From the IMG/VR virus record IMGVR_UViG_3300021376_000006: a stretch of DNA of 64,000 nucleotides. One strand, written 5' to 3'. The translations under genes and the position numbers were made by a program. Origin of the DNA: a virus (Duplodnaviria > Caudoviricetes). This document shows positions 17,400-59,841 of this stretch, in pieces. Below the pieces are notes generated by a model. The model was given only the letters and a program-made list of their open reading frames with translations, made no database searches and was not told the origin of the DNA. Numbering within the stretch: the first letter of the stretch is position 1; each line of letters begins with the position of its first letter.

Positions 17400-17592
17400 A
17401 TCTTAATAACCCTGATTCGTAATAAAGTGCAGTTAAATCTAAATATTCTAACCTATAGGTTACAAAGGAAGGACGCCAAAATCTTGCTGTTTTATCTAGC
17501 CTTACAGTTATTACCCTTTTGTTTATTCGAATAGACCAAACACAAGAAAATCTTGACTTACAATAATAAAAGTTTATATCATTTTTAGTCAT
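17380..17592 (-). CDS. Hypothetical protein
   Basis: Start reassigned to MTKND at 17592, overlapping the queE stop. Confidence 0.45.
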   Translation of the reverse strand: MTKNDINFYYCKSRFSCVWSIRINKRVITVRLDKTARFWRPSFVTYRLEYLDLTALYYESGLLRYERNEN

Positions 17593-18440
17593 CAAGTTCC
17601 CCATTCGTTTTTAAATAACGGTACTTGAAGTCTATCGCTGTATCGTAAACCATGTTTCATTGCTAACAGTGCAACGTTGCGGTTATTTAAAGTATATACA
17701 CTTTCAATACCTCCTACTGGCATAAGATAAATTGATCCTTTAAATCCTGCATTACGATACTGCTCTGTGGCTTTTAAAGCATCTGTGACATCTTCTTCGG
17801 TTGCCACAACAAACTTGAGATAGGTGTAACCAACAGTGGCATAATCGCACACAATGTTGGGTTTGATTGCATCTTCCCATGACTCTCCACTGACAGGTAG
17901 TTTTGCGCTTACACTGAATGTAACTTCTCTATCTCGAGACGCAGCAGTCCATTCGCCTAGATAATGTTTGAACTCTTTGGTTAGCTCTTGAGTACCGTTA
18001 GTTTCAAAAGTAATTTCTTTTAACTTTTGCATACGAGGATGATTCAGCAGATCTTCGTAACTACGCTGCCAACCTAGTAGAGGCTCGCCACCTGTAATAA
18101 CAAGATGTTCGTCCTTCCACTTGCTATGTGGAAGAATTTCCATAATTTGTTCCACAATTGCATCACTGGTTAGCATAGGACTAAGATCTTTGAATCTTGG
18201 ATCCCAGCTTGCATAACTGTCACAGCCTGTACTTACCAAAGGTAAATCATCGTATTTGTTGTAATAATGCACTCTTGCTGCTATATCTTCTACTTCTCTA
18301 CTTAGTTTTCCTCTAGGCATACCGAATCCTGCACATTTAAAGTTGCAACCAAATGTGCGAAGAAAGACACTAGGCACACCCATGTATCTGCCTTCGCCTT
18401 GGATTGAATAAAATAGTTCAGCTACTTTGATTTTACTCAT
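17592..18440 (-). CDS. queE: 7-carboxy-7-deazaguanine synthase (radical SAM)
   Basis: ELFYSIQGEG, VFLRTFGCNFKC...CDS (CxxxC with displaced third Cys), ITGGEPLL, ETNGT, LKFVV, RLQV. Confidence 0.92.
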   Translation of the reverse strand: MSKIKVAELFYSIQGEGRYMGVPSVFLRTFGCNFKCAGFGMPRGKLSREVEDIAARVHYYNKYDDLPLVSTGCDSYASWDPRFKDLSPMLTSDAIVEQIMEILPHSKWKDEHLVITGGEPLLGWQRSYEDLLNHPRMQKLKEITFETNGTQELTKEFKHYLGEWTAASRDREVTFSVSAKLPVSGESWEDAIKPNIVCDYATVGYTYLKFVVATEEDVTDALKATEQYRNAGFKGSIYLMPVGGIESVYTLNNRNVALLAMKHGLRYSDRLQVPLFKNEWGT

Positions 18441-18442
18441 GA

Positions 18443-18967
18443 TTATCCTTGGTAGGTTGCACTGTTAGCACCGTGCTCAAATACTTCTACACTTTTTATA
18501 CGCACAGTTGGATTGATTGGATAACGCAAAGCGTCACCGGCTAACAGTTCACTCATTTTGTCATAGCACATCTTGGCAAACATTTCGCACCCTACACCCG
18601 GAACAATGCGTAGATCACACAATGCACCTCGTTCGTATGGTTTAACTTGTTCTAAACTTCCGGTACCAGACATAGGCATGTTGCCCTGATGACTCATTCG
18701 TACAAAAAAATCTAGGTGAGGATCATCTTCGGCCACAATTAGAGTATGATCAAACATGTAGTCGGCCCATGACTTGAATTCTTTGAGACCTCCAAAGTCC
18801 ATGCACCAGTTTTTATCGTCTAGTGTATCACATTCAAATACCAGCCGAATGCCAATTGAATAACCGTGTAGCGTTGAACAATGGCTGTGTGTGGCACGCC
18901 ATTGTCTAAAGCAACAGCTGAGTCCTCGGTCGTTGCCATAAGTTTTTGTTGAGTAAAATTGTGCCAA
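18443..18967 (-). CDS. queD: 6-carboxy-5,6,7,8-tetrahydropterin synthase
   Basis: HSHCSTLHGY, DFGGLK, FDHT, CEMFA, VEVFEH; TTG start after AGGAG. Confidence 0.9.
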   Translation of the reverse strand: MAQFYSTKTYGNDRGLSCCFRQWRATHSHCSTLHGYSIGIRLVFECDTLDDKNWCMDFGGLKEFKSWADYMFDHTLIVAEDDPHLDFFVRMSHQGNMPMSGTGSLEQVKPYERGALCDLRIVPGVGCEMFAKMCYDKMSELLAGDALRYPINPTVRIKSVEVFEHGANSATYQG

Positions 18968-19053: not shown

Positions 19054-19233
19054 TTATTTATTAATGTATATGCAGTTAGCTGAAACTCTGTATCTATCTG
19101 ATTTCCAGGCTTGACGAACATAATCTCTTGTCTTTTCGCATTCTTCAAAATTTTGAGTTGGAAAACTTATAGAACCTCGAGATGATGGCACATTTGGATT
19201 AATTGCATGCAACATAATTATTAGAGTCCACAT
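19054..19233 (-). CDS. Small secreted or membrane protein with two Cys
   Basis: Start reassigned to MWTLIIML; TATAAATA at 19239-19246 immediately upstream. Confidence 0.65.
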   Translation of the reverse strand: MWTLIIMLHAINPNVPSSRGSISFPTQNFEECEKTRDYVRQAWKSDRYRVSANCIYINK

Positions 19234-19273
19234 AAAAATATTTATACTACAGTTTCCCAGGCATGTCTTTCCA

Positions 19274-19558
19274 TTACAGTTTGAATATTGTTGGCAGTAA
19301 CATACTGGCAGTACTAGCATCATCCCCGTGAAAGTGAAGTCTAGTACCGCCTGTGCCATTTTGGTGATGATGACAACGTTTTGCCTTGCCGTAACTAACA
19401 TATTTCACAATTTGTTCTCGACCACGACTGTCCCAAAATTTAGATTCAATTACAGTGCCGTCAATCATCTTGTACCACTCTATCATATCATCAGTGAGTT
19501 CGTCTACATCAATCCAGACCGCATACGTTACTGTGCAACCTGGTGGTAAAGCTATCAT
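19274..19558 (-). CDS. Hypothetical protein
   Basis: Start MIALPPG overlapping the PRTase stop; 3' end possibly frameshifted. Confidence 0.65.
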   Translation of the reverse strand: MIALPPGCTVTYAVWIDVDELTDDMIEWYKMIDGTVIESKFWDSRGREQIVKYVSYGKAKRCHHHQNGTGGTRLHFHGDDASTASMLLPTIFKL

Positions 19559-20103
19559 TGAGCCCACCACGTTTCCCAAGGAAAAACAACCCAACAAGGA
19601 TCATCGAGTTTGTTTATGTTGCGACCGCTATAGCTAATACCTTCGTAGCTGCTGGCTTCATTGTTTACAACAACTGCGAATCTTACATTACGGTTCCAGA
19701 TTGCCGACCATGCAGGATGATTGGGCAAGCAACTGCTCTGCCAATCTTGTCTAATCCATTCTAGTGTAGCACCTGAGTCATTGATGTCATCCACTATCAA
19801 TATTTTTTTTCGATAAGCAGGATCAGTGTCTGCATCACCTGAACCACGTTCGTCTTTGGGCACATAACCAAATGCCTGTTCGGCCATCCATAAATTACTT
19901 TCAGATTCCCCACCGTCACGCAAGCTCACTTTAAGTGTTTCACAAGGAACACCAAAGTAATGACTGATCATTACAGCAGGTTGCAATCCGCCCCGAGTTA
20001 TACCAACTACATAATCTGGACGCCAATTACTATTTGCAATATCTCTGCACAGTTTGTTGACCAAACCTTTGAATTCAGAATCTGAAATAATTAGTTGTTT
20101 CAT
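19555..20103 (-). CDS. Type I purine phosphoribosyltransferase (Gpt/Hpt-like)
   Basis: VVGITRGG, PRPP loop LIVDDINDSGATL, WVVFPWE. Confidence 0.9.
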   Translation of the reverse strand: MKQLIISDSEFKGLVNKLCRDIANSNWRPDYVVGITRGGLQPAVMISHYFGVPCETLKVSLRDGGESESNLWMAEQAFGYVPKDERGSGDADTDPAYRKKILIVDDINDSGATLEWIRQDWQSSCLPNHPAWSAIWNRNVRFAVVVNNEASSYEGISYSGRNINKLDDPCWVVFPWETWWAQ

Positions 20104-20291
20104 CAGTCTCTTTCCATAAGTGAAGCTTCTTTGATAAGTGCTACCAATTCATCCAAGGTGTTACACAAAATTTTTGCATTGGCCCAATCGCCATCTTCGG
20201 TGCGACCACCAGCTTCAAACATGAAACCGTTGTCATACATGCTGTCAGTAAAGCTGTCGTTGATTTTGTTTAATTTGTCTTCGATTTTCAT
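20103..20291 (-). CDS. Hypothetical protein
   Basis: 62 aa ORF with coupled overlaps. Confidence 0.65.
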   Translation of the reverse strand: MKIEDKLNKINDSFTDSMYDNGFMFEAGGRTEDGDWANAKILCNTLDELVALIKEASLMERD

Positions 20292-20515
20292 TTTAATCCT
20301 TTCTTGAGTTTATCTTCTTTCATGCCTTGTGCTATCATTTTTTTAAAAATTAATACCACTCTATTTTTCTCCTTTTCAGAGAGAAACTTTACCAACATCA
20401 ACTTGTCTTCGTAACTTTTTGCGTTGTCAAGAAATTCTTCAGGTACTGTAATTTTTGGTTTTTTTGGTTTGAATTTCTTGAGTTCAGCTTTGACATCTTT
20501 TTCTTCATCAGACAT
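20288..20515 (-). CDS. Hypothetical protein
   Basis: 75 aa ORF with AGGAG RBS. Confidence 0.65.
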   Translation of the reverse strand: MSDEEKDVKAELKKFKPKKPKITVPEEFLDNAKSYEDKLMLVKFLSEKEKNRVVLIFKKMIAQGMKEDKLKKGLK

Positions 20516-20542: not shown

Positions 20543-21238
20543 CTATCTGGGAGCAAATTCTTGTTGTAGTTTAACGTTGTCAAAAAATTCTTTTTTGGTT
20601 GCAGCATCGTCTTTGAATGCGCCTCTCAACACTGTTGTTTGGGTAAGACTGCTATGTGCCATAATGCCTCTATTCTCGCAGCAACCGTGCGTGGCTTGTA
20701 TATAAACTGCCACATCCTTACTTCCAGTTGCAAACTCAATTTCTCTGGCGATATCCATACATAGTTCTTCTTGAAGTGTGCCGCGCCGCGCACACCATTG
20801 TGCAATTCGCGTGTACTTCGAGAGACCAATGAGTTTGGGTCCAGCAATAATACCAATATAAGCAACACCCGACACAGGTTGATGATGATGGCTACAAACA
20901 CTTTTAAGTTCGCTTCGAACTACAAGCATTCCGTCGTATGCCCCATCAGTGTCATTTGGAAATGCAGTTGCGTTGGGTGTAGGATCATATCTACCTGCCA
21001 TCAATTCATAGTAATACATTTTGGCAAGACGTCTTGCTGTGCCTTTACTGTTGGGATCAGTTGCTCGGTCAATCAACAATGTATCTAGCACTTGTTCAAA
21101 AGCCTCTGTGGCTTCGTCAATCAACTGATCTCGATCTTCGTCATTCACATAACTGCTTATGTTGTCACCGGCCCAATATCTCTTGCCGTCTGCCTGCATC
21201 TGTTCTCTAATACGATCACTTACTCTTGTATATTTCAT
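20543..21238 (-). CDS. folE: GTP cyclohydrolase I
   Basis: TARRLAKMY, CSHHHQP, GLSKYTR, LQEEL, HGCCENRG. Confidence 0.95.
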   Translation of the reverse strand: MKYTRVSDRIREQMQADGKRYWAGDNISSYVNDEDRDQLIDEATEAFEQVLDTLLIDRATDPNSKGTARRLAKMYYYELMAGRYDPTPNATAFPNDTDGAYDGMLVVRSELKSVCSHHHQPVSGVAYIGIIAGPKLIGLSKYTRIAQWCARRGTLQEELCMDIAREIEFATGSKDVAVYIQATHGCCENRGIMAHSSLTQTTVLRGAFKDDAATKKEFFDNVKLQQEFAPR

Positions 21239-21850
21239 TTAATCTCCAATAATTGCGATATCTCTTAGATCTGGATATTCGTGATATTTAGGTTGTTCAT
21301 TCAGTGTTAGAAGTTTTTCTAAACCGATCCTTGCATCTTCGATAGTGGGGCGATAATGATAACCAACCTTGAAAACACGCTGTTCCTGCCACGGCAAGAA
21401 ATTGAGATTTCTTCCGTCATAGCGTTGTTGTAATAGTATATCATATGCCTCGTAATCGTCTAACAGTATAGCACCACCGTGGCCTATCTGTAAAGGTTTA
21501 TTATGACCAAAACTCAAACACTGCATCATACCAGGCCGATACATGCCGTCTTCCAATCTTCTAGCACTATCCCAAATGTCTGTTCCGTAAAATCTATACT
21601 CACCTGTCCATTTTTCTGGAACTAATTTGTATTCTATTCCTAACTTGTGCATGATCATTGGGATTGATAGATAGGTGTATGCGGTAAACTTGACTCGTTG
21701 AACCTTATTGTAGCGCAAACATAACTCAATCGCATGTGTACAGCAATCAGTCATTATGGCATAAGGTGCACCAGTTTTCTTTGCTAATAATTTTTCAAAT
21801 TGCGCTATTTCTTCAAAGGCCACGTGTGTACCATTTATAAGCTGAATCAA
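21239..21850 (-). CDS. Short DegT-family PLP protein
   Basis: DCCTHAIEL, DSARR, SFGHNKPLQIGHGGAIL; only 203 aa. Confidence 0.75.
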   Translation of the reverse strand: MIQLINGTHVAFEEIAQFEKLLAKKTGAPYAIMTDCCTHAIELCLRYNKVQRVKFTAYTYLSIPMIMHKLGIEYKLVPEKWTGEYRFYGTDIWDSARRLEDGMYRPGMMQCLSFGHNKPLQIGHGGAILLDDYEAYDILLQQRYDGRNLNFLPWQEQRVFKVGYHYRPTIEDARIGLEKLLTLNEQPKYHEYPDLRDIAIIGD

Positions 21851-22778
21851 CGATTTGGTTGATAGTTGAATAGTTAGGACGCCAGTTCAGTACTGATTGT
21901 GCTAGGCCAGCATCTGCAACTAGTTGATCCGGATCTCCGGGCCTACGTTCGCCTACGTGTAATTTTAACGGTCCATATTTTAATGTAATATAATCTACAA
22001 TTTCTTGATTGCTTATTCCGCTATTGGTTCCCAAATTAAACACTGCAAATTGCTGATCAGTGTTCCAATGTATAGCTCTATGATGTGCATCAGCTAAATC
22101 CCATACATGAATGTAATCTCTAATACAGGTTCGATCTGGTGTTGCAAAGTCTACACCGTTTAGAGTGAAAAATTCATCACGAATTTTAGATTCTAATAAT
22201 CTAGCAATGATGTGTCCTGCGCCCGGTGCTTGACCTAGGTCGTGATTGTAAGGTTCGGCACCGGCGGCGTTAAAGTATCTAAAACAAACACCAGGTAATC
22301 CGTATGCTTGGTTATAATTTTGAAGCACTACTTCAATAATATCTTTAGTGTGGCCGTATGGACTAATAGGTTTTATCCTGTCAGTTTCAACCAGTGGAAC
22401 ATGATCAGGGTTGCCGTACACACTAGCACTAGAACTAAAAAGAATAATCGGTTTCTTTTTATAATCCTTAACATGATTTAAAAATGTAATTGTCTTTGCT
22501 ACATTGTTATCATAATATTTTGCCGGATCTTCAACACTTTCTCTAACAGAGATATCCCCGGCACAATGTACAATGACATCGGGTTGTAATTCGTCTAACC
22601 ATAATAAACTTTGTTTAGATACATAGTCAGTATGTAAAAATCCATCAACATTTTTTAATGTGTGATCTCTACGCTCACTATCAATAACATACACACTTGA
22701 ATTTTTGTTGTGTTGTTTTAAATAGCGAGAAATGTGACTACCAATGTAGCCACATCCGCCTGTAATGACAATTTTCAT
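21813..22778 (-). CDS. galE: UDP-glucose 4-epimerase-like SDR
   Basis: ITGGCGYIGSH, FSSSASVYG, SPYGHTK, RYFNAAGA, RDYIHVWDLA. Confidence 0.88.
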   Translation of the reverse strand: MKIVITGGCGYIGSHISRYLKQHNKNSSVYVIDSERRDHTLKNVDGFLHTDYVSKQSLLWLDELQPDVIVHCAGDISVRESVEDPAKYYDNNVAKTITFLNHVKDYKKKPIILFSSSASVYGNPDHVPLVETDRIKPISPYGHTKDIIEVVLQNYNQAYGLPGVCFRYFNAAGAEPYNHDLGQAPGAGHIIARLLESKIRDEFFTLNGVDFATPDRTCIRDYIHVWDLADAHHRAIHWNTDQQFAVFNLGTNSGISNQEIVDYITLKYGPLKLHVGERRPGDPDQLVADAGLAQSVLNWRPNYSTINQIVDSAYKWYTRGL

Positions 22779-23971
22779 TAGTACTTGCTTTCGTGTGTGT
22801 GTTTACGATAGTCTGTACTCATTCGCAACCAGGATTCTCCGTTGCCTTGGAGAATATCGCAGATCCTATCAATAGTCGAGTCGTTCCACGCACTAAACTT
22901 GCCCATGTTGTTGTGCGGATGTTGTAAGAGGGGTACAAGTTTTTGTATTGCATCTCTAATCGACCACGGGACATAAAGTCTCTCGCTATCATTTGCAAAA
23001 GCTTCGGGGAAACTTCTGTAGGCGGGGTATAAAATATTAGCCCCAAGAGCGTCAGCTTCACTTGCTGTGTTCGAAACCCAATCCTGTAGAGCACAATTAA
23101 ACAATACTCGCGTATCCGTGAGTAATTCATAGTAATCATTCTTTTCAAGATCTTCATACACAGTCAGTTTGCCTTCGGCCTGCAGTCTACGTGTACGTTC
23201 CATGTAACTGCTATTGTTACTACGCAACTTGCTGCCGCTGAATACACAGAATTCTACCCGGGGCCAATCGTTATATGGCAATGTCTGCAGTCTATGATAT
23301 TCTTCGATTAGATCCATGTAGAAGTCTGGCTGCTTCTCTTGATCCCACCTAGCAGCAAAACCTACACGGTAAGCTCTATCTTCGAATCTTTTTAGATCTC
23401 CGGGTACACGACTGCGTACTTCGTCTTTACCAAACGCCAGTCCACTGATATTATACAGCCTACCCTGCCAGCCTGCAACCTTCATGTGCATGACCATTTC
23501 TTCATTAGTGGCAAGAATTATATCGGCAAACGAGTCGACCATCTTTTCATAGTGTCCCATCCATTCTTGCATACCCCATACATGAACAAAATCATCGGGG
23601 TCAATAGTTTGTGCAAGACAGCGAACGGCAATGCGAGGACGGCTACCAGCGTCCACTTGATCCAAAATGTAAGGTAGGCTTTCGATGCCGGGTTGAAACA
23701 TGTCCTCAAAGTATACAACATCTTCATTAGTAACTGCTCCTGCTTTCATTAGACGAATAAGATTCATAAGTTGGCTCATGCCAAAATATGTACGACCATG
23801 TGCATCAAGGACTTGACCAGTAACAATAGCTTGGTCATTGCTTAGTGTGTCGCCGGGCACAATTTCATAGTCGATGCCGCGGCGTTCAAACACTGCACGA
23901 TTCCATTCTTGTAATTGTAATGTATAACGTGCCTTATAAGGCTCTAGGCCCATGTACCATAATTTACGCAT
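22778..23971 (-). CDS. GT-B fold glycosyltransferase-like protein
   Basis: FAARWDQEKQP and FNCALQDWVSNTASEADALG...YP...SFPE resemble the GT4 nucleotide-sugar-binding domain. Confidence 0.65.
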   Translation of the reverse strand: MRKLWYMGLEPYKARYTLQLQEWNRAVFERRGIDYEIVPGDTLSNDQAIVTGQVLDAHGRTYFGMSQLMNLIRLMKAGAVTNEDVVYFEDMFQPGIESLPYILDQVDAGSRPRIAVRCLAQTIDPDDFVHVWGMQEWMGHYEKMVDSFADIILATNEEMVMHMKVAGWQGRLYNISGLAFGKDEVRSRVPGDLKRFEDRAYRVGFAARWDQEKQPDFYMDLIEEYHRLQTLPYNDWPRVEFCVFSGSKLRSNNSSYMERTRRLQAEGKLTVYEDLEKNDYYELLTDTRVLFNCALQDWVSNTASEADALGANILYPAYRSFPEAFANDSERLYVPWSIRDAIQKLVPLLQHPHNNMGKFSAWNDSTIDRICDILQGNGESWLRMSTDYRKHTHESKY

Positions 23972-24621: not shown

Positions 24622-25071
24622 TTAGATTTTTATTGAAAGAGAAGGTTGATGAGTTGCATAAGTTATGGAGCAGCCGTTTTCGTTGTCTTCGCTTACACTG
24701 ATTGTAACATTGCGTTCGGGATACCTGTTAGCGATTTGAACATATAAATCATCTGCAATCATTTCACAACTTTTGTGATCTAATTGCAATACAGCTTGGT
24801 CGCCCGAATACAATTGTTCGATCCAGCGTTTGAACTGGATGAATTCGATGTCTCTGTCATTGTGAAATACATCAATACTAATCCTAAAATGAAATATATG
24901 GCGATGAGGATGGCCAAGGAACGAAACGTCATATTTGTCTCCGGTTGCGAGTAGTGGATCGGTCAGTGCTGCTGGATATTGATGGATACCTTCTCGAGAA
25001 AAAGTAACCCAAATCTGTCTTTGAGCGTGGTGTAAAATTCTATCAACTGTTTCTCTTTGTGATTGGATCAT
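24622..25071 (-). CDS. QueD/PTPS-like T-fold protein (second, divergent copy)
   Basis: HPHRHIFHF His cluster, DIEF, SCEMIA, VSEDNENG parallel the QueD motif layout. Confidence 0.6.
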   Translation of the reverse strand: MIQSQRETVDRILHHAQRQIWVTFSREGIHQYPAALTDPLLATGDKYDVSFLGHPHRHIFHFRISIDVFHNDRDIEFIQFKRWIEQLYSGDQAVLQLDHKSCEMIADDLYVQIANRYPERNVTISVSEDNENGCSITYATHQPSLSIKI

Positions 25072-25664
25072 AATAAATTCAAGTTGTCAAAAGTTATTGT
25101 TTTAGTATAAATTCCAAATTGCAAATAGTCAATCAATTTGATTATCAAATCTGCGATTTGTGCGGTACTTTGTAATAGTTTATCTTTAGGTAATATACCG
25201 TTCAATGAATGTATAAAATTGGTGTCTAATAGAGCCGGATTAATTTCAATTATTTTTAATTGAGAATCAATTTGACGATGTATATCTATCATGTTTTTTT
25301 GTTTTCTTTTTTCTTCTATGTACTTTTTTTCTTTGGGATTGAAGTTTACGTAAAATGATTCAGGTTTGTCTACCAAGAAACTTCCTATGTGAATTATCAA
25401 TTTGTTTGGATCATATCGCCATACTTTTAAAATATATTTAAGAAGCATGGTTTGCCCAAACGCATCGTATGCGTTGTTAATAAAAACATCTGCCGATCGA
25501 CTTAATTGTAATATTTTTGCTATGGTACTAAGTTTACTAATGTCGTACCCATCAATGATATCATATCCTACAACTTGATTTTGACCAAAATTCTTATAAT
25601 ATTGTAGTCTGAGACAAAGAGCTTGCCCTAAGCCAGATTTATGGCCAGTTATAACCAATTTCAT
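25068..25664 (-). CDS. Short-chain dehydrogenase/reductase
   Basis: ITGHKSGLG, DVFINNA, YIEEK (YxxxK). Confidence 0.75.
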   Translation of the reverse strand: MKLVITGHKSGLGQALCLRLQYYKNFGQNQVVGYDIIDGYDISKLSTIAKILQLSRSADVFINNAYDAFGQTMLLKYILKVWRYDPNKLIIHIGSFLVDKPESFYVNFNPKEKKYIEEKRKQKNMIDIHRQIDSQLKIIEINPALLDTNFIHSLNGILPKDKLLQSTAQIADLIIKLIDYLQFGIYTKTITFDNLNLL

Positions 25665-26194
25665 TTAATTACTTCGTCTTTGGTATACTGTGACCAATCA
25701 GTAAATACACCGTCTCTACGCATCAGGCTGTGTACACTATGGCACCACACCCCAGGATTAGAATGTGCAAAATTAGTATCATCGATTTTTATTGTTGCAT
25801 TATATCCAAGCTGTTGTATATAGGGCAATTTAACCGATATCATTGGAATAAACTTTTGATATTCAACAAGAGTAGATTCTAGCAATCCTTCTACTTCTCT
25901 CACATCTATATCCAAAGTACACCAATAACCACGTCCTATAAAAGGCATGATCATATTTTCCCATCGTGTCCAATCTTGACTTGTAGCGCGACCTGTTGGA
26001 AAACTTTGGTTAGCACCAAAATATATGTGTTCAATTTTTTTGTTTACTTGGGTGAAAGGATCATTTAGTATCTGTTCAATGTCTTCAGTAGATTTCACTC
26101 CTGCTACAAAAAGAGTTTTCAAGCCATATGCTGGACTATGTTCTACTTCAGTGCCTAAAAACATAGTAACATCATTGTGTCCAGGTCTGTCCAT
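25661..26194 (-). CDS. Hypothetical protein within the deazaguanine cluster
   Basis: 177 aa ORF (GTEVEHSPAYG...HIYFGANQSF...NPGVWCH). Confidence 0.8.
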   Translation of the reverse strand: MDRPGHNDVTMFLGTEVEHSPAYGLKTLFVAGVKSTEDIEQILNDPFTQVNKKIEHIYFGANQSFPTGRATSQDWTRWENMIMPFIGRGYWCTLDIDVREVEGLLESTLVEYQKFIPMISVKLPYIQQLGYNATIKIDDTNFAHSNPGVWCHSVHSLMRRDGVFTDWSQYTKDEVIK

Positions 26195-26407: not shown

Positions 26408-27952
26408 TTATTCCTCCAAATGAGTTTGCATAATTGTTTCTGCTTCGTCCTCAGACATTTCGTCTTCAACTTCTTCTACTGTTTCAAAAAGTGCATTAAA
26501 CATGGTATGACTGTTCTTTGTTTTTTTGCCTTTGAATCCTCTTGTGCCAACGATGTCCATCCAATAACTATCGTAGCGTTCAACAATTGCTTCGGCACTT
26601 GCACGATCAGGTGCAGAGAAAACAGCTTCAACAATGTCTCTGAATCTAGCATGGTCACCATTGACATTCCACAGCATGCTAGGTCGTTCTCCTGCATCAT
26701 ACGCTCTATTCGCTCGCTGAACTGATTCAATATGCATCCAAACATTGTGCCCCATCATTAATGCGTAACTAAAACTATCCCAACTGGTTCGACCTTCCTT
26801 GCCATTTTTATTCAGGTCACCGGGTTGATATATACAAACATCTTTAATTAGCAAATGTTTACTTATTGGACTGTCCTCAAATTGTTCAAAGATACCATCT
26901 TGTAATACCGCATCTCGAAACAGTCTAGTGTCTGTGGCGTATTTCTTGTCATCGGCACTGGGCTTCATTTTGTACGACCATTTACTATCGTGTTCAAGAC
27001 TAATGGCATGATACATCTGTCCATTGGCAGTAGCAAGAAACGGACTGGCGCAATCAAAACTGATTGTAAATGCTGGATTGACATACTTACGAACGGCTCG
27101 TTGAATGTCAGTTAGTAACAACGCCCATTCTAGTTTACTTGTTCCTAGAAAGTGCATCCAATCATGTACACCTTCTTGCAGTAGATTATCATATCTCAAT
27201 GCAACTAATCTTTTAAGAACAAGATGAATATCACACATGTTCTGACCGCCCATAGCCCAGCCATCAAAATGTGTATCTGGATATATGGTAGGATCGCAGA
27301 ACTGTTTCATTTCTTGATACCATTCTTCTGCCGAAGTATGATTGTCACCTTGAAGAACGTTTAGGAACTTAGCACCACCGTTGTTCTTTCCTTGACGGTG
27401 TTGCATAAAGTAATTGTTGTTAAACTTGGTAGCATCAACTGCTTCTTGGAGAGTAGTAATGCCGCAGGCCTTGCTTGCTTTCTTGTCATGGATAACCCAA
27501 GTTGGAATATCAAGAATCATACCATAGTCAGCAATACCGTCTAGCCATTTTAACACAGCCGAACGTTTCTTTTCAGCTTTTGAACACCCGCTATTGGCTT
27601 TCCAATCACCTTCCCACAAGCCCTTGGCAATCTGAAATCCGCCGGAGTCACCTAACATAAAGGTTCCAGGTTCTCTCTTGCGAACCATGTCTTCACTGGC
27701 ATCCTCTTTAGTAAGATCTAGGTTTGCGTGTCCTCCGGAGTAGAGATTCCATCTGTAGGGGAACAGGGCTTGTTGGCTGTTCAGCCAATTGAATTGCTCC
27801 ATGTCCTGTAATGCCTGTGGCATACGAGCAGGATCAACATAGTCATTGTTAACACGTTGTTTTCCTATAAAAGTTGCATAGAATCCAGATATAGCAGGCA
27901 AGAACACTGCATAATCTGATTGCTTTGCTGTTAAATTATCTTGGTTCGTCAT
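26408..27952 (-). CDS. Guanine transglycosylase (TGT/DpdA-like)
   Basis: DSGGFQ, LDIP, NVLQG, GWAMGG, HFLGTS, SFDCASP; located with folE/queD/queE. Confidence 0.8.
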   Translation of the reverse strand: MTNQDNLTAKQSDYAVFLPAISGFYATFIGKQRVNNDYVDPARMPQALQDMEQFNWLNSQQALFPYRWNLYSGGHANLDLTKEDASEDMVRKREPGTFMLGDSGGFQIAKGLWEGDWKANSGCSKAEKKRSAVLKWLDGIADYGMILDIPTWVIHDKKASKACGITTLQEAVDATKFNNNYFMQHRQGKNNGGAKFLNVLQGDNHTSAEEWYQEMKQFCDPTIYPDTHFDGWAMGGQNMCDIHLVLKRLVALRYDNLLQEGVHDWMHFLGTSKLEWALLLTDIQRAVRKYVNPAFTISFDCASPFLATANGQMYHAISLEHDSKWSYKMKPSADDKKYATDTRLFRDAVLQDGIFEQFEDSPISKHLLIKDVCIYQPGDLNKNGKEGRTSWDSFSYALMMGHNVWMHIESVQRANRAYDAGERPSMLWNVNGDHARFRDIVEAVFSAPDRASAEAIVERYDSYWMDIVGTRGFKGKKTKNSHTMFNALFETVEEVEDEMSEDEAETIMQTHLEE

Positions 27953-28559
27953 AAAAATCAAGGTTACTTATAAATTTGTAGTCGTTGTGATATGTAATAA
28001 TAATTTTAGATTTTAATTTAGGATCGTTGTCGATACGTGATTTGATAAATTTTATAACCTGGGCGTTATCGTAATTTGATTCTGATCTGTTATCTTCAAT
28101 GTTATCAAGTGTATTTAGATCATAGCCCAAGTAATGATTTATTTGTTGCTTTAAATTTTTGTTAAATCTAAAATATACTGGATCGTAATTCAAAATTTGT
28201 TGTATATATTTTAACTGAAAGTCAGTATGATCATCAAACACGATTTGATCAAAGATTATTCTTTCGGCTAAATGGTTGTAATCAGAAACAAAGTGATCAC
28301 TGCCATAGCCTGATCCTAGCAGGCGTAAAGAAGCGTAAGTACCAAATCCACTCAGCCATCTTTCTACAGGATCTCTTATTACCACCAAGCAATTTTTAAT
28401 AGCAATTGGTTGATCAATGATATTCCAGTGTGACCAAGAATTGTATTTCAACAAATTAGTTAAATAGGTGCTTGCATTTTTTGGAATATTGAGATAAAAT
28501 ATTTCCCGGTCAGGGGACAACATACCTCCGCCGGGAACATATCCTGTGTCTTTGATCAC
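27936..28559 (-). CDS. Sulfotransferase family protein
   Basis: IPKNAST (5'-PSB) and IRDPVERWLS (3'-PB) motifs. Confidence 0.75.
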   Translation of the reverse strand: MIKDTGYVPGGGMLSPDREIFYLNIPKNASTYLTNLLKYNSWSHWNIIDQPIAIKNCLVVIRDPVERWLSGFGTYASLRLLGSGYGSDHFVSDYNHLAERIIFDQIVFDDHTDFQLKYIQQILNYDPVYFRFNKNLKQQINHYLGYDLNTLDNIEDNRSESNYDNAQVIKFIKSRIDNDPKLKSKIIITYHNDYKFISNLDFYDEPR

Positions 28560-30295: not shown

Positions 30296-32956
30296 TTATT
30301 CAAAGGTAAACAAGGTATCAAATGTTGTTTTGATATCAGTATAATTAGGTATATCCCATTCTAGTACTCCCAAGAGATTTTCTACCTTTTGATCCACAAT
30401 TGTGGCTTCCATAAGATTATCGTCAAATGGCAATTCTTTAAACCAAGCAGGAATATGACTTTCATCTGTGGGATAACCTACACTGGTGTATCCTAACGCA
30501 TTGTCTTTTAATTTGCAAACAATAGTTTTCATACCATCCACAATAGCCATGCTGTAATTGTCCCCGTGCATGCGCCGTAAGTTGTTCCAGTTAAGAGCAG
30601 CACGAACATGACCCGGCATATTGGCACGACCAAGTCGCTCTTCTTCTCGACCGTACTTGGTTAGATTATTGACACGTTTAGGTGTACCTTTTTCCCAAGC
30701 AGGTCTATCTTGGAACGCAATTTTGAATTCTCGTACACGGTCGTAGATTTCTTCCTTGTCTGCTCCAGTTAGTACCGCAGTCAACAGTTCACTCAAGAAG
30801 TCTTGTACAACCTTGGGAGTATCTGATCGTTTAAGATCAAGACCCATTGCTTTTACTTTACCGGGCTTGCCATGTGTGTCTAGTCTGTGCCCTTCTAGGT
30901 CATAGATAAGAACAGCATAGCGTTTTTTCTTTATGAATAGTCCCTTACTAGCGACAAGTTCTCGCCCCCCTCGTATTAGCTCACCCATTGGTCTTGGTAC
31001 ATGACAGGCCCTTTCCATAAAAGCCGGGAAGGAATCATTGACTTGATCTGCGATATTATCGTAAAGTTGGGCACAGATGTCTCGGTTCCATTCCATCCGA
31101 CCTGATTCAACTTCTTCTCTAACTGCAGGCCATGCTGTAAAATAGCATGAATCAGTGTCACCGTAGATGATGGATTTGCCCACATGGTTATATTCTCCGA
31201 ATATGCACTCATTGATATACGCATCCATGTGCCGCGCGATAATCCTTCCAGTGAGAGTAGTACTTTGACCAATTCTTTTATCGAAAAATCTACAACCTGG
31301 ATTGAGGATCGCTCCGTAGAGACTGTTAAGGTTAATTTTCTTGACAAGTTGTCGCTTGTCCCAGAACGCTTGGTCTTCTTTCGTATTAGCTTCTTTTTTC
31401 TTGGCTTGTAATTCCTTGCGTTCTGCATACCACCTCTCTAATAGTCCAGGCACAACTGCTTTTTGTTCATAACTGAATATAGTACCATTTGCACTTAGCA
31501 TCCATGGACGATTACTATCAAATATAAGTCTCCATATATCAGCTGCACTCATTATATCTGAACCGCCGGCTTCCCAATCAATGGTAATTTCTGTGCCAAC
31601 TTCTCCATTCATTACTGCGGTATACTCAAGACTGCCAAACATGTTTTCCCATGCATCTGCAAAACTACTGCCACCGGCCATTTTTTCTTGAATATACCTG
31701 TCGGTCATTATTGGCCGCAGCTGACCGACGATCGACTCTTGTGCCATGTTAAGAGCGCGGATTGCTGACGGGTAGAGACTGTTGATGTCGATTGCTCCGA
31801 TCCAGTCGTGCATGCCTTTTTTGGGGAAAGCAACATAGGCACCTGCTGCTTGCGTATCTCCTTGGTCATCTCTTCCTTTCCTATCAGGTACAACCATACC
31901 TCGTTGATGTGCTTCGTTGATAATTGCCTGCTCAGTCACTGCCACAGCACCCATGGTAGTTTGTAACAGCACGGTGTTATCATGTGCAAGTTCATTGGCT
32001 AGATCTAGGAATCGCAATTTGCGATCTAGATTGGCCACAAGCATGGTATCTTGTCGGTTGTAGTCAATGAACTTGGGAAAGTCTTTGTTGTATAGCTGAT
32101 CCAGTGTGCCTTCGTATTGTGTCTTACGCTCATCTAGTTCGTATTCACCAATGGCATCCAAGCTATAACTGTGTCGCTCTTCATATGTGTATTTGCGATA
32201 CAGTTGCATATAGTCCATATGCACTCGGCCAATTAAATCAAATGTGAGATTCTCTGCACCAAAACGTTCAAATGTTCGTTGTTTGGGTAGTTGATTCCAT
32301 AGGCAGAATCTGCGGGTATCGTCCTTGGCCAACACCTTGGTTGTACGCATGACCATGTAAGGAATATCGAAGCCCTCTGAGTTCCACCCACTCAAGATGT
32401 CTGCATCTTCGATGATATCAAGAAATGTATTAAGTAAATCTTCTTCTCGTTCAAATAAAAAACAGTTGTCGTATTGGTTGCATATTTCTTGTGCCGTAGC
32501 CCACGAATAACTCTTGGGCGGCACAACCAACGTAACTAGTTTGTCCATCCAGTCTAGATACACGCTAATTGCTGTAATTGGATTGAACGGATCTTCAGGT
32601 TTTGAGAAACCTCTCGCCGGGTCAAAGTCTACCTCAATGTCGAAAAAAACCGTTTGTAATTTAGGCGAATTGGCGCCAAGATAGTTTGTCTCTAAACAGC
32701 GAAATATGGGATTGATGTCACTTTCCCACAAAATTTTTCCTGAGTTGATTTTAAGTTCTTTATGATATTCTTTGCTGTTGCGAGTGCTGAATCTTGACAC
32801 CGCAGTGTGATATATGGTACGATACTTGCCCTTGGGATCATCATAGTAGAACACATATTCAGCGGGATATTCACGGTACTGTCGTTCGCCATTCACACGT
32901 TCTACCACACGAATGCGATCTTTGTCTCTGTCAAACAGAGCATCTATATAACTCAT
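30296..32956 (-). CDS. polB: Family B DNA polymerase with 3'-5' exonuclease
   Basis: FFDIEV (ExoI), WNSEGFD, YNRQD, DINSLYPS, KINLNSLYG, YGDTDS, KKRY; no intein-size insertion. Confidence 0.97.
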   Translation of the reverse strand: MSYIDALFDRDKDRIRVVERVNGERQYREYPAEYVFYYDDPKGKYRTIYHTAVSRFSTRNSKEYHKELKINSGKILWESDINPIFRCLETNYLGANSPKLQTVFFDIEVDFDPARGFSKPEDPFNPITAISVYLDWMDKLVTLVVPPKSYSWATAQEICNQYDNCFLFEREEDLLNTFLDIIEDADILSGWNSEGFDIPYMVMRTTKVLAKDDTRRFCLWNQLPKQRTFERFGAENLTFDLIGRVHMDYMQLYRKYTYEERHSYSLDAIGEYELDERKTQYEGTLDQLYNKDFPKFIDYNRQDTMLVANLDRKLRFLDLANELAHDNTVLLQTTMGAVAVTEQAIINEAHQRGMVVPDRKGRDDQGDTQAAGAYVAFPKKGMHDWIGAIDINSLYPSAIRALNMAQESIVGQLRPIMTDRYIQEKMAGGSSFADAWENMFGSLEYTAVMNGEVGTEITIDWEAGGSDIMSAADIWRLIFDSNRPWMLSANGTIFSYEQKAVVPGLLERWYAERKELQAKKKEANTKEDQAFWDKRQLVKKINLNSLYGAILNPGCRFFDKRIGQSTTLTGRIIARHMDAYINECIFGEYNHVGKSIIYGDTDSCYFTAWPAVREEVESGRMEWNRDICAQLYDNIADQVNDSFPAFMERACHVPRPMGELIRGGRELVASKGLFIKKKRYAVLIYDLEGHRLDTHGKPGKVKAMGLDLKRSDTPKVVQDFLSELLTAVLTGADKEEIYDRVREFKIAFQDRPAWEKGTPKRVNNLTKYGREEERLGRANMPGHVRAALNWNNLRRMHGDNYSMAIVDGMKTIVCKLKDNALGYTSVGYPTDESHIPAWFKELPFDDNLMEATIVDQKVENLLGVLEWDIPNYTDIKTTFDTLFTFE

Positions 32957-53789: not shown

Positions 53790-54509
53790 TTGAGCAAACG
53801 CCGTAGAAGCGAAGTAACACAATTGTCTGTAGTGAGTAACATCGATTCATATCAAAAACAACGCCGTACTATCCAACTTATTCCCAAAAGTCTTAACCAA
53901 GAAACTTATATAGATTTATTAGAAAATCCCCAACGCTTAATAGTATTTGCCGCAGGCCCGGCAGGAACAGGCAAAACTATGCTGGCTGTGTTGGCCGCGT
54001 TACAAGCATTTAGATCCGGAGAATGCTCTCGAATTGTTATTACCAGACCCGCAGTAGGTGTTGATGACGAGCAACATGGATTTTTGCCGGGTACACTAAA
54101 TCAAAAGATGGAACCGTGGACTAGACCCATCTTTGATATTATAGAGGAGTATTATCGACCACAAGAGGTACAGCGTCTGCTAGAAGAAAAATATATAGAG
54201 ATTGCTCCACTAGCATACATGCGAGGGCGGACATTTAAAAATTCGTGGATTATTGCAGATGAGATGCAAAACGCGACACCAAGTCAGATGAAGATGCTGC
54301 TTACTCGACTAGGCGAAAACTCTAAGATGGTTGTAACAGGTGACACGCAGCAGGCCGACCGTAGGGCCCAGGACAACGGATTATTGGACTTTCAAATACT
54401 TATTAAGGACTTTGATAGCCAATATATTGCTGGCGTGGAGTTTGCAGTCAAGGATGTTCGTAGACATCCGGCTGTGGCTGAAGTTCTTAAATTATACAGG
54501 GAGGATTAA
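53790..54509 (+). CDS. phoH: PhoH-family ATPase
   Basis: GPAGTGKT, ITRP, GFLPG, RGRTF, DEMQN, TRLG, GDTQQ, RHP; TTG start after AAGGAGG. Confidence 0.95.
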   Translation: MSKRRRSEVTQLSVVSNIDSYQKQRRTIQLIPKSLNQETYIDLLENPQRLIVFAAGPAGTGKTMLAVLAALQAFRSGECSRIVITRPAVGVDDEQHGFLPGTLNQKMEPWTRPIFDIIEEYYRPQEVQRLLEEKYIEIAPLAYMRGRTFKNSWIIADEMQNATPSQMKMLLTRLGENSKMVVTGDTQQADRRAQDNGLLDFQILIKDFDSQYIAGVEFAVKDVRRHPAVAEVLKLYRED

Positions 54510-54991
54510 TATAGCTGAGACAACGAGTACAAAGTACTATTCAAACTAACATGATGAATGGCGATACCTCCAGCAGCTCGCCATTCATCGATGTTACTTT
54601 GCCTATCATCAATCAAGATATCACCTGGTTGACAATGTTGCCATTTGTCTTTGCTGTACGGACCAAACATAACTGCTATGTTAGGAAAGTGCTGTTGAGC
54701 CCAAACAACTTTATCATAAAAAGACCATTTTACATCGTTCCCTTTGGGAACGGCTGTTAAAAAATACAAATTATATCCCTTAGTAAGTGCGAAATCCTTG
54801 CACTCGGCCACTAATTCATCTGCATAGGAAGTCTTTTTTAGATCTCTGTATAGCCTAGGATTCGCTGCTATTTTATTCCAATGTTCATCTGGATATATGC
54901 CATTATTTCCAGGCAACAATCCGAGAATACCCTCAGCAAATTCATCGAAGTCGGCTATGACTCCGTCCATGTCTAGGTATAGTGTTGTCAT
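54506..54991 (-). CDS. HAD-family 5'(3')-deoxyribonucleotidase
   Basis: YLDMDGVIADF, FLTA, LIDDR. Confidence 0.88.
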   Translation of the reverse strand: MTTLYLDMDGVIADFDEFAEGILGLLPGNNGIYPDEHWNKIAANPRLYRDLKKTSYADELVAECKDFALTKGYNLYFLTAVPKGNDVKWSFYDKVVWAQQHFPNIAVMFGPYSKDKWQHCQPGDILIDDRQSNIDEWRAAGGIAIHHVSLNSTLYSLSQLY

Positions 54992-59406: not shown

Positions 59407-59841
59407 CTACAAATCTCCAGCCTGCCTATTTTCAGAATAGTGAACATCAAACGCACCACCTGGATATCGGGCTTTTAATTTATTTACGTTTTCCGCAATG
59501 ACGTCATTTGGATCTAGACCAAGTGCGCGGCATGCATTTATCCAATACCACATGATATCACCCAGTTCCCGTTTCATGTGAAATACATTTTCCTCAGTCA
59601 ATGGCTTGCCTTGAAAATAAATCTTTTTGGGAATCTCACAAAATTCACCTGTTTCGGCTGCAAGTCCTAGAGCTGCAGTTAGCAGTAGTGGCACGTTGAT
59701 ATCAGGACCATGTGTATCTGTGTTGTAATCAAAGTTGCCGTCTAAATAGTCCAAACGGTTCATAAAACTGGTAAGATCGTTTGATGGTTGGCTGGTCACT
59801 GCTTCAACAAAATCTTTATACTTGTTTAAGTCAACTGTCAT
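59407..59841 (-). CDS. mazG: MazG-like nucleotide pyrophosphohydrolase
   Basis: GLAAETGEFCE, RELGDIMWY, NVNKLKARYP. Confidence 0.88.
   Translation of the reverse strand: MTVDLNKYKDFVEAVTSQPSNDLTSFMNRLDYLDGNFDYNTDTHGPDINVPLLLTAALGLAAETGEFCEIPKKIYFQGKPLTEENVFHMKRELGDIMWYWINACRALGLDPNDVIAENVNKLKARYPGGAFDVHYSENRQAGDL

What the first reader, a model, noticed from the sequence alone, without database searches (positions are those of the whole stretch)
19555..20103. Purine PRTase inside the que cluster suggests a pre-replicative route to a modified dGTP
Seen: Gpt/Hpt-type PRTase between queD and folE; a MazG pyrophosphohydrolase and a HAD deoxyribonucleotidase elsewhere in the window; a phage polB next to the cluster. 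Established: PRTases join purine bases to PRPP, and 2-aminoadenine phages use pool-editing enzymes (DatZ, MazZ) with their own polymerase. Inference: CDG could be salvaged to a nucleotide and incorporated by polB while MazG/HAD deplete dGTP, as an alternative or addition to post-replicative base exchange.
Basis: inference. Interest (0 to 1): 0.62.

Follow-up and report, generated by a model that had tools for sequence, protein, structure and literature searches.

The report
Guanine-salvage enzyme inside phage deazaguanine genes
A giant lake-water phage keeps a small guanine-salvage-type enzyme in the operon that replaces guanine in its DNA with 7-deazaguanine; the same pairing recurs in many unrelated phages, and the papers I could search do not explain this helper step.

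Summary
Window 19555-20103(-) encodes an intact 182-aa Gpt/XGPRT-like phosphoribosyltransferase (PRTase). It is translationally coupled into folE > orf75 > orf62 > PRTase > (orf115) > queD > queE.

The same block holds a DpdL-like T-fold protein, a long TGT/DpdA-like transglycosylase and PolB. No QueC was found.

The PRTase is under strong purifying selection. It sits beside CDG-pathway genes in 77/80 and 72/80 related viral contigs. It also sits in or near the que genes of all three phage groups shown to replace every G (phiST, CP220, immuto_2-6A), and in PA5oct, ZZ01 and Brevundimonas phages. In Queuovirinae (NP1) it is fused to FolE.

The MazG and HAD/NT5C genes are real but lie 35-40 kb away. 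This MazG is the generic cyanophage type and is missing from a 93%-complete relative.

Best reading (about 0.5): the enzyme salvages guanine, including guanine expelled by DpdA, to GMP and so to GTP for FolE.

Sequence analysis cannot decide between these.

This scan has noted the same PRTase-que pairing on at least eight other DNAs. The deazaguanine papers I could read (Hutinet 2019, 2023) do not mention it.

The parts
19555..20103 (-). Gpt/XGPRT-like purine phosphoribosyltransferase (182 aa), the finding itself
   Evidence: PF00156 E 7.5e-12. RGG, ILIVDDINDSGAT and W171..FPWE motifs are invariant in the family. Aligned with E. coli Gpt. dN/dS about 0.08.
20103..20291 (-). 62-aa ORF; its stop overlaps the PRTase start codon by 1 nt
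   Evidence: Coordinates. tblastn relatives in 34 of 80 related loci, usually just upstream of the PRTase. No family match.
20288..20515 (-). 75-aa ORF between folE and orf62, with a 4-nt overlap with orf62
   Evidence: Coordinates. Relatives in 20 of 80 loci. No family match.
20543..21238 (-). FolE, GTP cyclohydrolase I (first step; consumes GTP)
   Evidence: PF01227 E 5e-38; phrog_2197.
19054..19401 (-). 115-aa ORF between the PRTase and queD; function unknown and coding status uncertain
   Evidence: No Pfam or PHROG match. tblastn relatives in 11 of 80 loci. No similarity to phiST DpdL or to the ZZ01 118-aa neighbour.
18443..18967 (-). QueD (CPH4 synthase)
   Evidence: PF01242 E 2e-15; phrog_2389 E 2e-36.
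17592..18440 (-). QueE (CDG synthase, radical SAM)
   Evidence: phrog_2076 E 4e-52. 45% identity to ZZ01 QueE.
24622..25071 (-). DpdL-like T-fold protein (proposed CDG decarboxylase)
   Evidence: 35% identity to phiST DpdL CGPG_00067, E 1.6e-15. phrog_17812. Homologues in PA5oct, ACP17, Phosso and others.
26408..27961 (-). Long TGT/DpdA-like transglycosylase (517 aa)
   Evidence: Invariant GDSGGFQ and FDCASP motifs. AF2 model pLDDT 79.8; all top PDB matches are tRNA-guanine transglycosylases, E 7.6e-8. The ESM look-alike search gave the first lead. Pfam TGT does not detect it.
30296..32956 (-). Family B DNA polymerase flanking the module
   Evidence: PF00136 and PF03104. Synteny PolB-240aa-DpdA-177aa-DpdL is conserved in relatives.
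59407..59841 (-). Cyanomyovirus-type MazG; checked and judged not part of the module
   Evidence: PF03819. 45-60% identity to about 500 phage records, mostly cyanophages. Absent from the 93%-complete relative G005.
54506..54991 (-). NT5C/HAD 5'-deoxyribonucleotidase; checked and judged not part of the module
   Evidence: PF06941 E 8e-7. No relative within 10 kb of the PRTase in 80 loci.

Best explanation
The gene encodes an active 6-oxopurine (guanine-type) phosphoribosyltransferase that serves a post-replicative 7-deazaguanine DNA-modification system.

Proposed pathway:
- FolE, QueD and QueE turn GTP into 7-carboxy-7-deazaguanine.
- The DpdL-like protein probably decarboxylates it to 7-deazaguanine.
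- The long DpdA-like transglycosylase swaps that base for guanine in phage DNA.
- Every swap frees one guanine and has cost one GTP.
- The PRTase joins free guanine to PRPP to give GMP, and host kinases return it to GTP for FolE. The guanine comes from DpdA and from host nucleic-acid breakdown.

This would keep poorly soluble, exchange-competent guanine low, so that exchange can run far toward completion.

What is shown: gene identity, intact motifs, operon position, wide conservation, fusion to FolE in other phages, and presence of a DpdA.

What is inferred: the substrate (guanine), the recycling loop and the pull on the exchange equilibrium.
For: 1. Family and motifs. PF00156; nearest structures are 6-oxopurine PRTases. 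hhalign to E. coli Gpt gives 96.7%. RGG, the DD-x-x-D-x-G-x-T motif and the C-terminal W-x-x-F-P-W-E are invariant. The third Asp (D109) aligns with Gpt D92. From my own knowledge this equals HGPRT D137, the residue that contacts purine N7, an atom that 7-deazapurines lack. The Asp is kept in phages whose final bases differ (dDG phiST, dADG CP220, fdPreQ1 immuto), which argues for one common substrate.

2. A base-exchange enzyme is present and conserved: the 517-aa TGT-fold protein with both catalytic Asp motifs.

3. Rosetta-stone fusion. In Queuovirinae phage NP1 a compact PRTase domain forms the N-terminus of FolE (hhalign 97.7%, E 1.6e-12). NP1 also carries QueC and an annotated queuine tRNA-ribosyltransferase (DpdA-type) gene. 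Direct adjacency to FolE recurs in Brevundimonas MaInes and immuto_2-6A and in the folE-75-62-PRT operon of the window.

4. The PRTase is dispensable for the core pathway. The complete genomes of ACP17 and Phosso have que genes and DpdL but no PRTase.

5. The closest cellular relatives (Sphingomonadales, Bacteroidota; 27-38% identity) are stand-alone genes with no que neighbours and share the ILIVDDINDxG and DN..S motifs.

6. It occurs in all three phage groups with complete G replacement, where guanine release is greatest (Table 1 of PMC10516641).

7. Strong purifying selection.
Against: - No assay exists, and substrate specificity cannot be read from sequence.
- The Lys that contacts O6 in Gpt/HGPRT (K115/K165, own knowledge) aligns with Asn in the window family, although it is Lys in phiST, Brevundimonas and immuto.
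- The window family has two conserved insertions of unknown role, in the flexible loop and after the PRPP motif.
- GMP is not FolE's direct substrate, so the fusion does not imply channelling.
- QueC-less clusters with a PRTase and a decarboxylase mirror the tubercidin logic, where the PRTase takes CDG (PMC6112128).
- Hutinet 2023 could not reconstitute dDG with DpdL plus DpdA alone, and reports that an ADG nucleoside was seen in CP220-infected cells (PMC10516641).
- MazG-like NTP pyrophosphatases sit inside the module in phiST, in immuto and in about a quarter of relatives. A pure base-exchange model does not need them.
Confidence: 0.5

Rival explanations
1. TubE-like deazapurine PRTase opening a pre-replicative route. 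The enzyme joins CDG or 7-deazaguanine to PRPP. The nucleotide is decarboxylated if needed, phosphorylated, reduced by ribonucleotide reductase and incorporated as 7-deaza-dGTP by PolB. DpdA then only polishes residual G, or has another target.
For: - TubE is a proven CDG-specific PRTase in a QueC-less FolE/QueD/QueE cluster, with decarboxylation after ribosylation (PMC6112128).
- The window and 79 of 80 diverse related loci show no QueC, and many carry DpdL.
- The PRTase is present in all three fully substituted phage groups.
- MazG-like NTP pyrophosphatases lie inside the module in phiST, in immuto and in roughly 22 of 80 relatives.
- The S-PM2-type MazG prefers dGTP and dCTP (PMC6850273).
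- A modified-dGTP route was proposed for Campylobacter phages (quoted in PMC6884629).
- dDG could not be reconstituted from DpdL plus DpdA3 alone, and an ADG nucleoside was seen in infected cells (PMC10516641).
- A 93%-complete relative encodes ribonucleotide reductase.
Against: - An intact, conserved DpdA is present.
- The N7-contacting Asp is kept in every lineage, whatever the final base.
- The PRTase is fused to FolE, the first enzyme, rather than to a late enzyme.
- It is absent from the complete DpdL/que phages ACP17 and Phosso.
- The window's MazG and NT5C are unlinked, and MazG is missing from relative G005.
- No phage guanylate kinase was found.
- A PRTase yields a ribonucleotide, which would also enter the GTP pool. 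Known phage pre-replicative routes work at the dNMP level (own knowledge).
- Hutinet 2023 modelled DpdL as acting on the free base (PMC10516641).
- TubE itself rejects 7-deazaguanine (PMC6112128).
Confidence: 0.22
2. Generic purine-salvage auxiliary gene that boosts nucleotide supply for replication of a roughly 350-kb genome. Its position in the que cluster has no pathway-specific meaning.
For: Cellular relatives are ordinary stand-alone genes. The window holds many other nucleotide-metabolism genes: ThyA, DHFR, NT5C and MazG. In phiST the gene lies about 20 genes from the que cluster, near ribonucleotide reductase.
Against: Linkage to que genes is far too regular: 77/80 and 72/80 loci, at least six isolate lineages, and a gene fusion with FolE.
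Confidence: 0.1
3. A PRTase-fold protein that senses or regulates rather than catalyses. It would bind PRPP or a guanine nucleotide and tune FolE or the operon, as PurR/PyrR-type proteins do.
For: It is fused to FolE in NP1 as a very compact 117-aa domain. Earlier scan notes describe loop-less and apparently dead versions in other phages (unchecked).
Against: All catalytic motifs (RGG, DD..D.G.T, the stacking Trp) are invariant in the window family, and a long conserved flexible-loop insertion is present.
Confidence: 0.06

Closest known systems
E. coli xanthine-guanine phosphoribosyltransferase (Gpt, PDB 1A95-1A98) and archaeal 6-oxopurine PRTases (P. horikoshii 1VDM, Sulfolobus GpT-1/2)
   Same: The same small type-I PRTase fold family. 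Shared RGG loop, DD-x-x-D-x-G-x-T PRPP motif with the N7-contact Asp, and C-terminal W-x-x-x-P-W-[DE] stacking motif.
   Different: About 20-25% identity. The O6-contact Lys position is Asn. There are two family-specific conserved insertions (about residues 64-98 and 116-135). It is embedded in a phage DNA-modification operon instead of standing alone.
TubE (and ToyH) of tubercidin/toyocamycin biosynthesis in Streptomyces
   Same: A purine-type PRTase encoded with GTP cyclohydrolase I, CPH4 synthase and CDG synthase in a cluster without QueC and with a decarboxylase. TubE makes the CDG ribonucleotide (PMC6112128).
   Different: The sequence relationship was not tested, because no TubE sequence was on hand. 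The phage cluster has a T-fold DpdL instead of the UbiD decarboxylase. It has no GMP reductase or Nudix partner in the module, and it carries a DNA transglycosylase, which antibiotic clusters lack.
phiST-type dDG system (FolE, QueD, QueE, DpdL, DpdA3, MazG/dUTPase-like; Hutinet 2023, PMC10516641)
   Same: FolE, QueD, QueE, a DpdL homologue and a TGT-like transglycosylase, with no QueC. phiST also encodes a homologous PRTase, CGPG_00045.
   Different: The transglycosylase here is a 517-aa long form with the canonical DSGGFQ motif. It shows no detectable similarity to phiST DpdA3 (hhalign 9%). It is shared with PA5oct gp168 and Phosso. The PRTase is inside the operon, and sugar-nucleotide genes are interleaved.
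2-aminoadenine (Z-genome) phages: PurZ, DatZ and MazZ with their own polymerase
   Different: Those enzymes act on deoxynucleotides and cluster together. Here the NTP pyrophosphatase and nucleotidase are unlinked, the entry enzyme would make a ribonucleotide, and a base-exchange enzyme is present.

Membership tests
Type I PRTase, Gpt/XGPRT-like 6-oxopurine subgroup | Pfam PF00156 score above the gathering threshold | tested here: met
   45.3 bits against 26.3, E 7.5e-12
Type I PRTase, Gpt/XGPRT-like 6-oxopurine subgroup | PRPP-binding motif (hydrophobic stretch, DD, x-x-D-[ST]-G-x-T) and RGG pyrophosphate loop | tested here: met
   ILIVDDINDSGAT (101-113) and R37-G38-G39 are invariant in 39 sequences
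Type I PRTase, Gpt/XGPRT-like 6-oxopurine subgroup | Asp three residues after the DD pair (Gpt D92 / HGPRT D137), which contacts purine N7 | tested here: met
   D109 aligns with Gpt D92. It is conserved in the phiST, ZZ01, Brevundimonas, CP220, immuto and NP1-fusion forms. Its role is taken from my own knowledge of HGPRT/XGPRT structures.
Type I PRTase, Gpt/XGPRT-like 6-oxopurine subgroup | C-terminal aromatic residue that stacks on the purine (Gpt W134 in W-I-x-x-P-W-D) | tested here: met
   W171-V-V-F-P-W-E. W171 and E177 are invariant.
Type I PRTase, Gpt/XGPRT-like 6-oxopurine subgroup | Lys that hydrogen-bonds the 6-oxo group (Gpt K115 / HGPRT K165) | tested here: inconclusive
   The aligned position is Asn147/148 in the window family and in its cellular relatives. 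It is Lys in phiST, Brevundimonas and immuto, and Arg in CP220. The alignment in this stretch is not secure.
Type I PRTase, Gpt/XGPRT-like 6-oxopurine subgroup | Catalysis with guanine, xanthine or hypoxanthine plus PRPP | not testable with these tools
   Needs an enzyme assay
TubE/ToyH-type 7-deazapurine PRTase | Encoded with FolE, QueD and QueE; QueC absent (TubE type) | tested here: met
   QueC was not found in the window ORFs scanned. Only weak or partial PF06508 matches were found in two of five related long contigs. QueC was seen in 1 of 80 diverse loci.
TubE/ToyH-type 7-deazapurine PRTase | Sequence kinship with TubE or ToyH closer than with Gpt | not tested
TubE/ToyH-type 7-deazapurine PRTase | Partner enzymes acting on the nucleotide (UbiD decarboxylase, GMP reductase, Nudix) | tested here: not met
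   None found among the module ORFs scanned. The decarboxylase candidate is a T-fold DpdL.
TubE/ToyH-type 7-deazapurine PRTase | CDG- or preQ0-specific phosphoribosyl transfer | not testable with these tools
   Needs an enzyme assay
Phage DpdA 7-deazaguanine DNA-modification system (dDG type) | FolE, QueD and QueE present | tested here: met
Phage DpdA 7-deazaguanine DNA-modification system (dDG type) | DpdL homologue | tested here: met
   Window 24622-25071 against phiST CGPG_00067: 35% identity, E 1.6e-15
Phage DpdA 7-deazaguanine DNA-modification system (dDG type) | TGT-fold transglycosylase with both catalytic Asp motifs | tested here: met
   DSGGFQ and FDC are invariant. All top Foldseek matches are TGT, E 7.6e-8. 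It is not assignable to DpdA3 or to the NP1-type DpdA.
Phage DpdA 7-deazaguanine DNA-modification system (dDG type) | Modified base present in virion DNA | not testable with these tools
   Needs LC-MS of phage DNA
Pool-editing replacement system (Z-genome type) | Dedicated dNTP-destroying enzyme genetically linked to the synthesis genes | tested here: not met
   The window's MazG and NT5C lie 35-40 kb away and appear in 0 of 80 related loci near the PRTase. MazG is absent from the 93%-complete relative. Other small MazG-like ORFs do sit in the module in about 22 of 80 relatives.

The most novel reading that the evidence does not exclude
The PRTase loads CDG or 7-deazaguanine onto PRPP, as TubE does. 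Together with DpdL, host kinases and ribonucleotide reductase it then supplies 7-deaza-dGTP to the phage PolB. Complete G replacement in these phages, and in phiST, CP220 and immuto, would then be at least partly pre-replicative. That would be the first natural nucleotide-pool route to a guanine analogue in DNA. It would also explain why DpdL plus DpdA3 alone failed to give dDG in E. coli.
Probability: 0.22. Interest if true: 0.85.

Novelty: new variant of a known kind. Interest (0 to 1): 0.58.

Why it matters
How some phages replace every guanine with a 7-deazaguanine is unsettled. The current published view is post-replicative exchange by DpdA3, but that enzyme has not been reconstituted. 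An earlier proposal of a modified dGTP was never tied to a gene.

This purine PRTase travels with the pathway in hundreds of phage contigs. It occurs in all three fully substituted phage groups and is fused to FolE in another lineage. It is therefore a concrete, cheap-to-assay candidate for the missing helper step.

Two outcomes are possible. It may recycle and remove expelled guanine, which by my own rough estimate could reach millimolar amounts per cell for a 350-kb genome, far above guanine's low solubility. Or it may make the deazapurine nucleotide. Either answer would change how these systems are reconstituted and engineered.

Tried and rejected
- The 397-aa protein (22778-23971) was my first DpdA candidate. 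It has no Pfam or PDB sequence match, but feature look-alikes are GT-B glycosyltransferases, and it has more than 8000 homologue clusters. I rejected it as a transglycosylase.
- The 115-aa ORF next to the PRTase is not DpdL-like.
- The 177-aa conserved neighbour of DpdA was folded (pLDDT 75). No PDB match reached E 0.001. It is not related to the 177-aa protein annotated 'glycosylase' in Phosso.
- Pfam TGT and QueC searches in five related long contigs found no TGT. This only shows that the Pfam TGT model misses this DpdA form.
- hhalign of the DpdA family against single DpdA3 sequences (phiST, immuto) or the NP1 DpdA gave no significant match. The subfamily stays unassigned.
- Brevundimonas MAINES_00850 is not detectably DpdA3-like.
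- Crippen 2019 (J Virol; PMC6854489) is not held, so I know its proposal only through Hutinet 2019 and 2023.
- Literature searches for a PRTase or a pre-replicative route in phage deazaguanine systems found nothing relevant.
- I built no tree of PRTases because the sequences are short and very divergent. Independent recruitment versus a single origin is untested.
- I sent no complex prediction, because I do not claim binding.

Full report
**What is in the window**

All genes in this region run on the minus strand. ORF 19555-20103 (182 aa, ATG start) matches Pfam PF00156 (E 7.5e-12, above the curated cut-off) and a PHROG family named phosphoribosyl transferase.

Its start codon overlaps the stop of a 62-aa ORF by one base. 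That ORF overlaps a 75-aa ORF by four bases, and FolE (20543-21238) ends 27 bases upstream. Downstream lie a doubtful 115-aa ORF, QueD (18443-18967) and QueE (17592-18440).

Further upstream lie:
- a truncated DegT-like ORF, a sugar epimerase and a 397-aa protein whose look-alikes are GT-B glycosyltransferases;
- a DpdL homologue at 24622-25071, 35% identical to phiST CGPG_00067;
- a 517-aa protein at 26408-27961;
- a family B polymerase at 30296-32956.

**The phage has a base-exchange enzyme**

The 517-aa protein escapes Pfam. An alignment of 16 relatives shows invariant GDSGGFQ and FDCASP motifs, the two catalytic-Asp signatures of tRNA-guanine transglycosylases. An AlphaFold model (pLDDT 79.8) matches only TGT structures at the top of the PDB search (E 7.6e-8, probability 1.0).

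Homologues occur in Pseudomonas phage PA5oct (gp168, E 1.7e-139) and Sinorhizobium phage Phosso. I could not assign it to DpdA3 or to the Queuovirinae type.

No QueC was seen in the window ORFs I scanned. Related long contigs gave only weak or partial matches. By analogy with phiST (PMC10516641), the expected product is 7-deazaguanine inserted after replication.

**What kind of PRTase it is**

The nearest solved relatives are small 6-oxopurine PRTases: 1VDM, Sulfolobus GpT-1/2 and E. coli XGPRT. The family profile aligns with E. coli Gpt over its whole length (96.7%).

These features are invariant in 39 sequences:
- the RGG loop;
- ILIVDDINDxGxT;
- the C-terminal W..FPWE.

The Asp after the DD pair aligns with Gpt D92. 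From what I know of HGPRT and XGPRT structures, this residue contacts purine N7. The Lys that reads O6 appears to be Asn here, but that part of the alignment is weak.

Two insertions with conserved Trp and Cys residues are specific to this jumbo-phage clade.

Median dN/dS among close relatives is 0.08.

The closest cellular relatives (Sphingomonadales and Bacteroidota, 27-38% identity) are stand-alone genes without que neighbours.

**How tightly it travels with the pathway**

Counts in IMG/VR:
- Of the 80 closest loci, 77 have QueE and 65 have FolE within 10 kb, limited by contig ends.
- A second scan used a profile of five divergent phage PRTases. Of its 80 loci, 72 had FolE, QueD or QueE within 7 kb. 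QueC appeared in 1, DpdL in 26 and a MazG-like ORF in 13.

Position of the homologue in isolates:

| Phage | Position |
|---|---|
| Synechococcus phage BUCT-ZZ01 | between QueE and QueD |
| Brevundimonas MaInes | directly after FolE, beside dNMP kinase and ribonucleotide reductase |
| Flavobacterium immuto_2-6A | between QueE and FolE |
| Campylobacter CP220 | two genes from a QueE-like radical SAM gene |
| PA5oct (gp163) | next to QueE |
| phiST | about 20 genes from the que cluster |

phiST, CP220 and immuto_2-6A are the three phages reported to replace all G (PMC10516641).

In Queuovirinae phage NP1 the 297-aa 'GTP cyclohydrolase' has a 117-aa N-terminal domain. This is a compact PRTase with all motifs (hhalign 97.7%, E 1.6e-12).

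The complete genomes of ACP17 and Phosso have que genes and DpdL but no PRTase, by Pfam or by the family profile.

**MazG and HAD**

The window's MazG is the ordinary cyanomyovirus MazG, 45-60% identical to about 500 phage records, mostly cyanophages. The S-PM2 enzyme of that family prefers dGTP and dCTP and does not cleave (p)ppGpp (PMC6850273).

The gene is nevertheless not tied to the module. It is absent from a 93%-complete relative that has the whole module.

Other, unrelated small MazG-like ORFs do lie inside the module:
- in roughly 22 of 80 relatives, one of them overlapping the PRTase stop in L068;
- in phiST and in immuto.

That relative encodes ribonucleotide reductase but no guanylate kinase or PRPP synthetase.

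**Weighing the mechanisms**

I favour guanine salvage feeding FolE and removing DpdA's by-product, at about 0.5. The reasons:
- A conserved DpdA is present.
- The N7-contact Asp is kept in lineages whose inserted bases differ at position 7, which argues for one shared substrate.
- The enzyme is fused or adjacent to FolE, the GTP consumer.
- The core pathway exists without it in some phages.
- A PRTase makes a ribonucleotide, whereas known phage pre-replicative routes start from dNMPs (own knowledge).

Stoichiometry makes the role plausible. Each swap costs one GTP and frees one guanine. By my own rough estimate, a 350-kb genome and tens of progeny would free millimolar amounts of guanine per cell, far above its low solubility.

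The reasons:
- TubE is a proven CDG-specific PRTase in a QueC-less cluster followed by a decarboxylase (PMC6112128).
- dDG was not reconstituted from DpdL plus DpdA3 (PMC10516641).
- An ADG nucleoside was reported in CP220-infected cells (PMC10516641).
- NTP pyrophosphatases recur in the module.
- A modified-dGTP route was once proposed for Campylobacter phages (quoted in PMC6884629).

I could not read Crippen 2019 itself.

**Novelty and earlier notes**

Hutinet 2019 and 2023 contain no occurrence of 'phosphoribosyl'. My literature searches found no treatment of this enzyme in phage deazaguanine systems.

Earlier notes of this scan report the same pairing on at least eight other DNAs, with the same two rival ideas. 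They are unchecked AI notes and I do not count them as evidence. I re-derived the main points here.

I class the finding as a new variant of a known kind: a known DNA-modification system with an undescribed accessory enzyme.

Noticed in passing
L151:4809-5159 (Pseudomonas phage NP1, N-terminus of the 297-aa 'GTP cyclohydrolase'): A compact 117-aa PRTase domain with RGG, DDLIDSGST and WIVFPWEG motifs is fused in front of FolE. tblastn shows the same match in many Queuovirinae-like Pseudomonas, Vibrio, Xanthomonas and Stenotrophomonas phages.
   Followed up: partly
window 25661-26194 (-): A 177-aa protein conserved next to DpdA and DpdL in most relatives. The AF2 model (pLDDT 75) has no PDB match below E 0.001. 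Function unknown.
   Followed up: partly
L068:10546-10839 and L030:2345-2713: Small MazG-like NTP-pyrophosphatase ORFs lie inside the que module of relatives; one overlaps the PRTase stop. About 22 of 80 related loci carry one of the two types. The window's own module has none.
   Followed up: partly
window 21239-23971 (-): A truncated DegT-like ORF (it matches only profile positions 163-240 of 360), an NAD-dependent sugar epimerase/dehydratase and a GT-B-like 397-aa protein sit between FolE and DpdL. The 397-aa protein is 62% identical to a gene beside DpdL in cyanophage BUCT-ZZ01.
   Followed up: partly
L234 (PA5oct 222985-228313) and PV764938.1 323237-324742 (Phosso): The culturable jumbo phage PA5oct carries the same module: long DpdA gp168, DpdL gp166, PRTase gp163 and QueE gp162. 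In Phosso the long DpdA homologue lies about 170 kb from its FolE/DpdL/QueE cluster.
   Followed up: partly
L004-L083 (QueD hits): Relatives fall into two groups by QueD. Some carry a QueD 78-93% identical to the window's; many match at only 33-37%. This suggests that QueD alleles were swapped within an otherwise syntenic module.
   Followed up: no
window 19054-19401 (-): A 115-aa ORF between the PRTase and QueD, hydrophobic and Cys-rich, with no family match and relatives in only 11 of 80 loci. It may not be a real gene.
   Followed up: no
window 58653-59165 (-): A 170-aa ORF matches only positions 16-94 of the bacterial DNA polymerase III alpha NTPase domain (PF07733, E 2e-7). This is an odd fragment next to MazG.
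   Followed up: no
L090-L094 (genome contigs MAGs labelled Crocinitomicaceae, Neomarinimicrobiota, Legionella, Chitinophagales): These 'bacterial' MAG contigs carry the same phage module (DpdA, DpdL, FolE, PRTase, QueE, exonuclease). They are probably phage sequence binned into MAGs.
   Followed up: no
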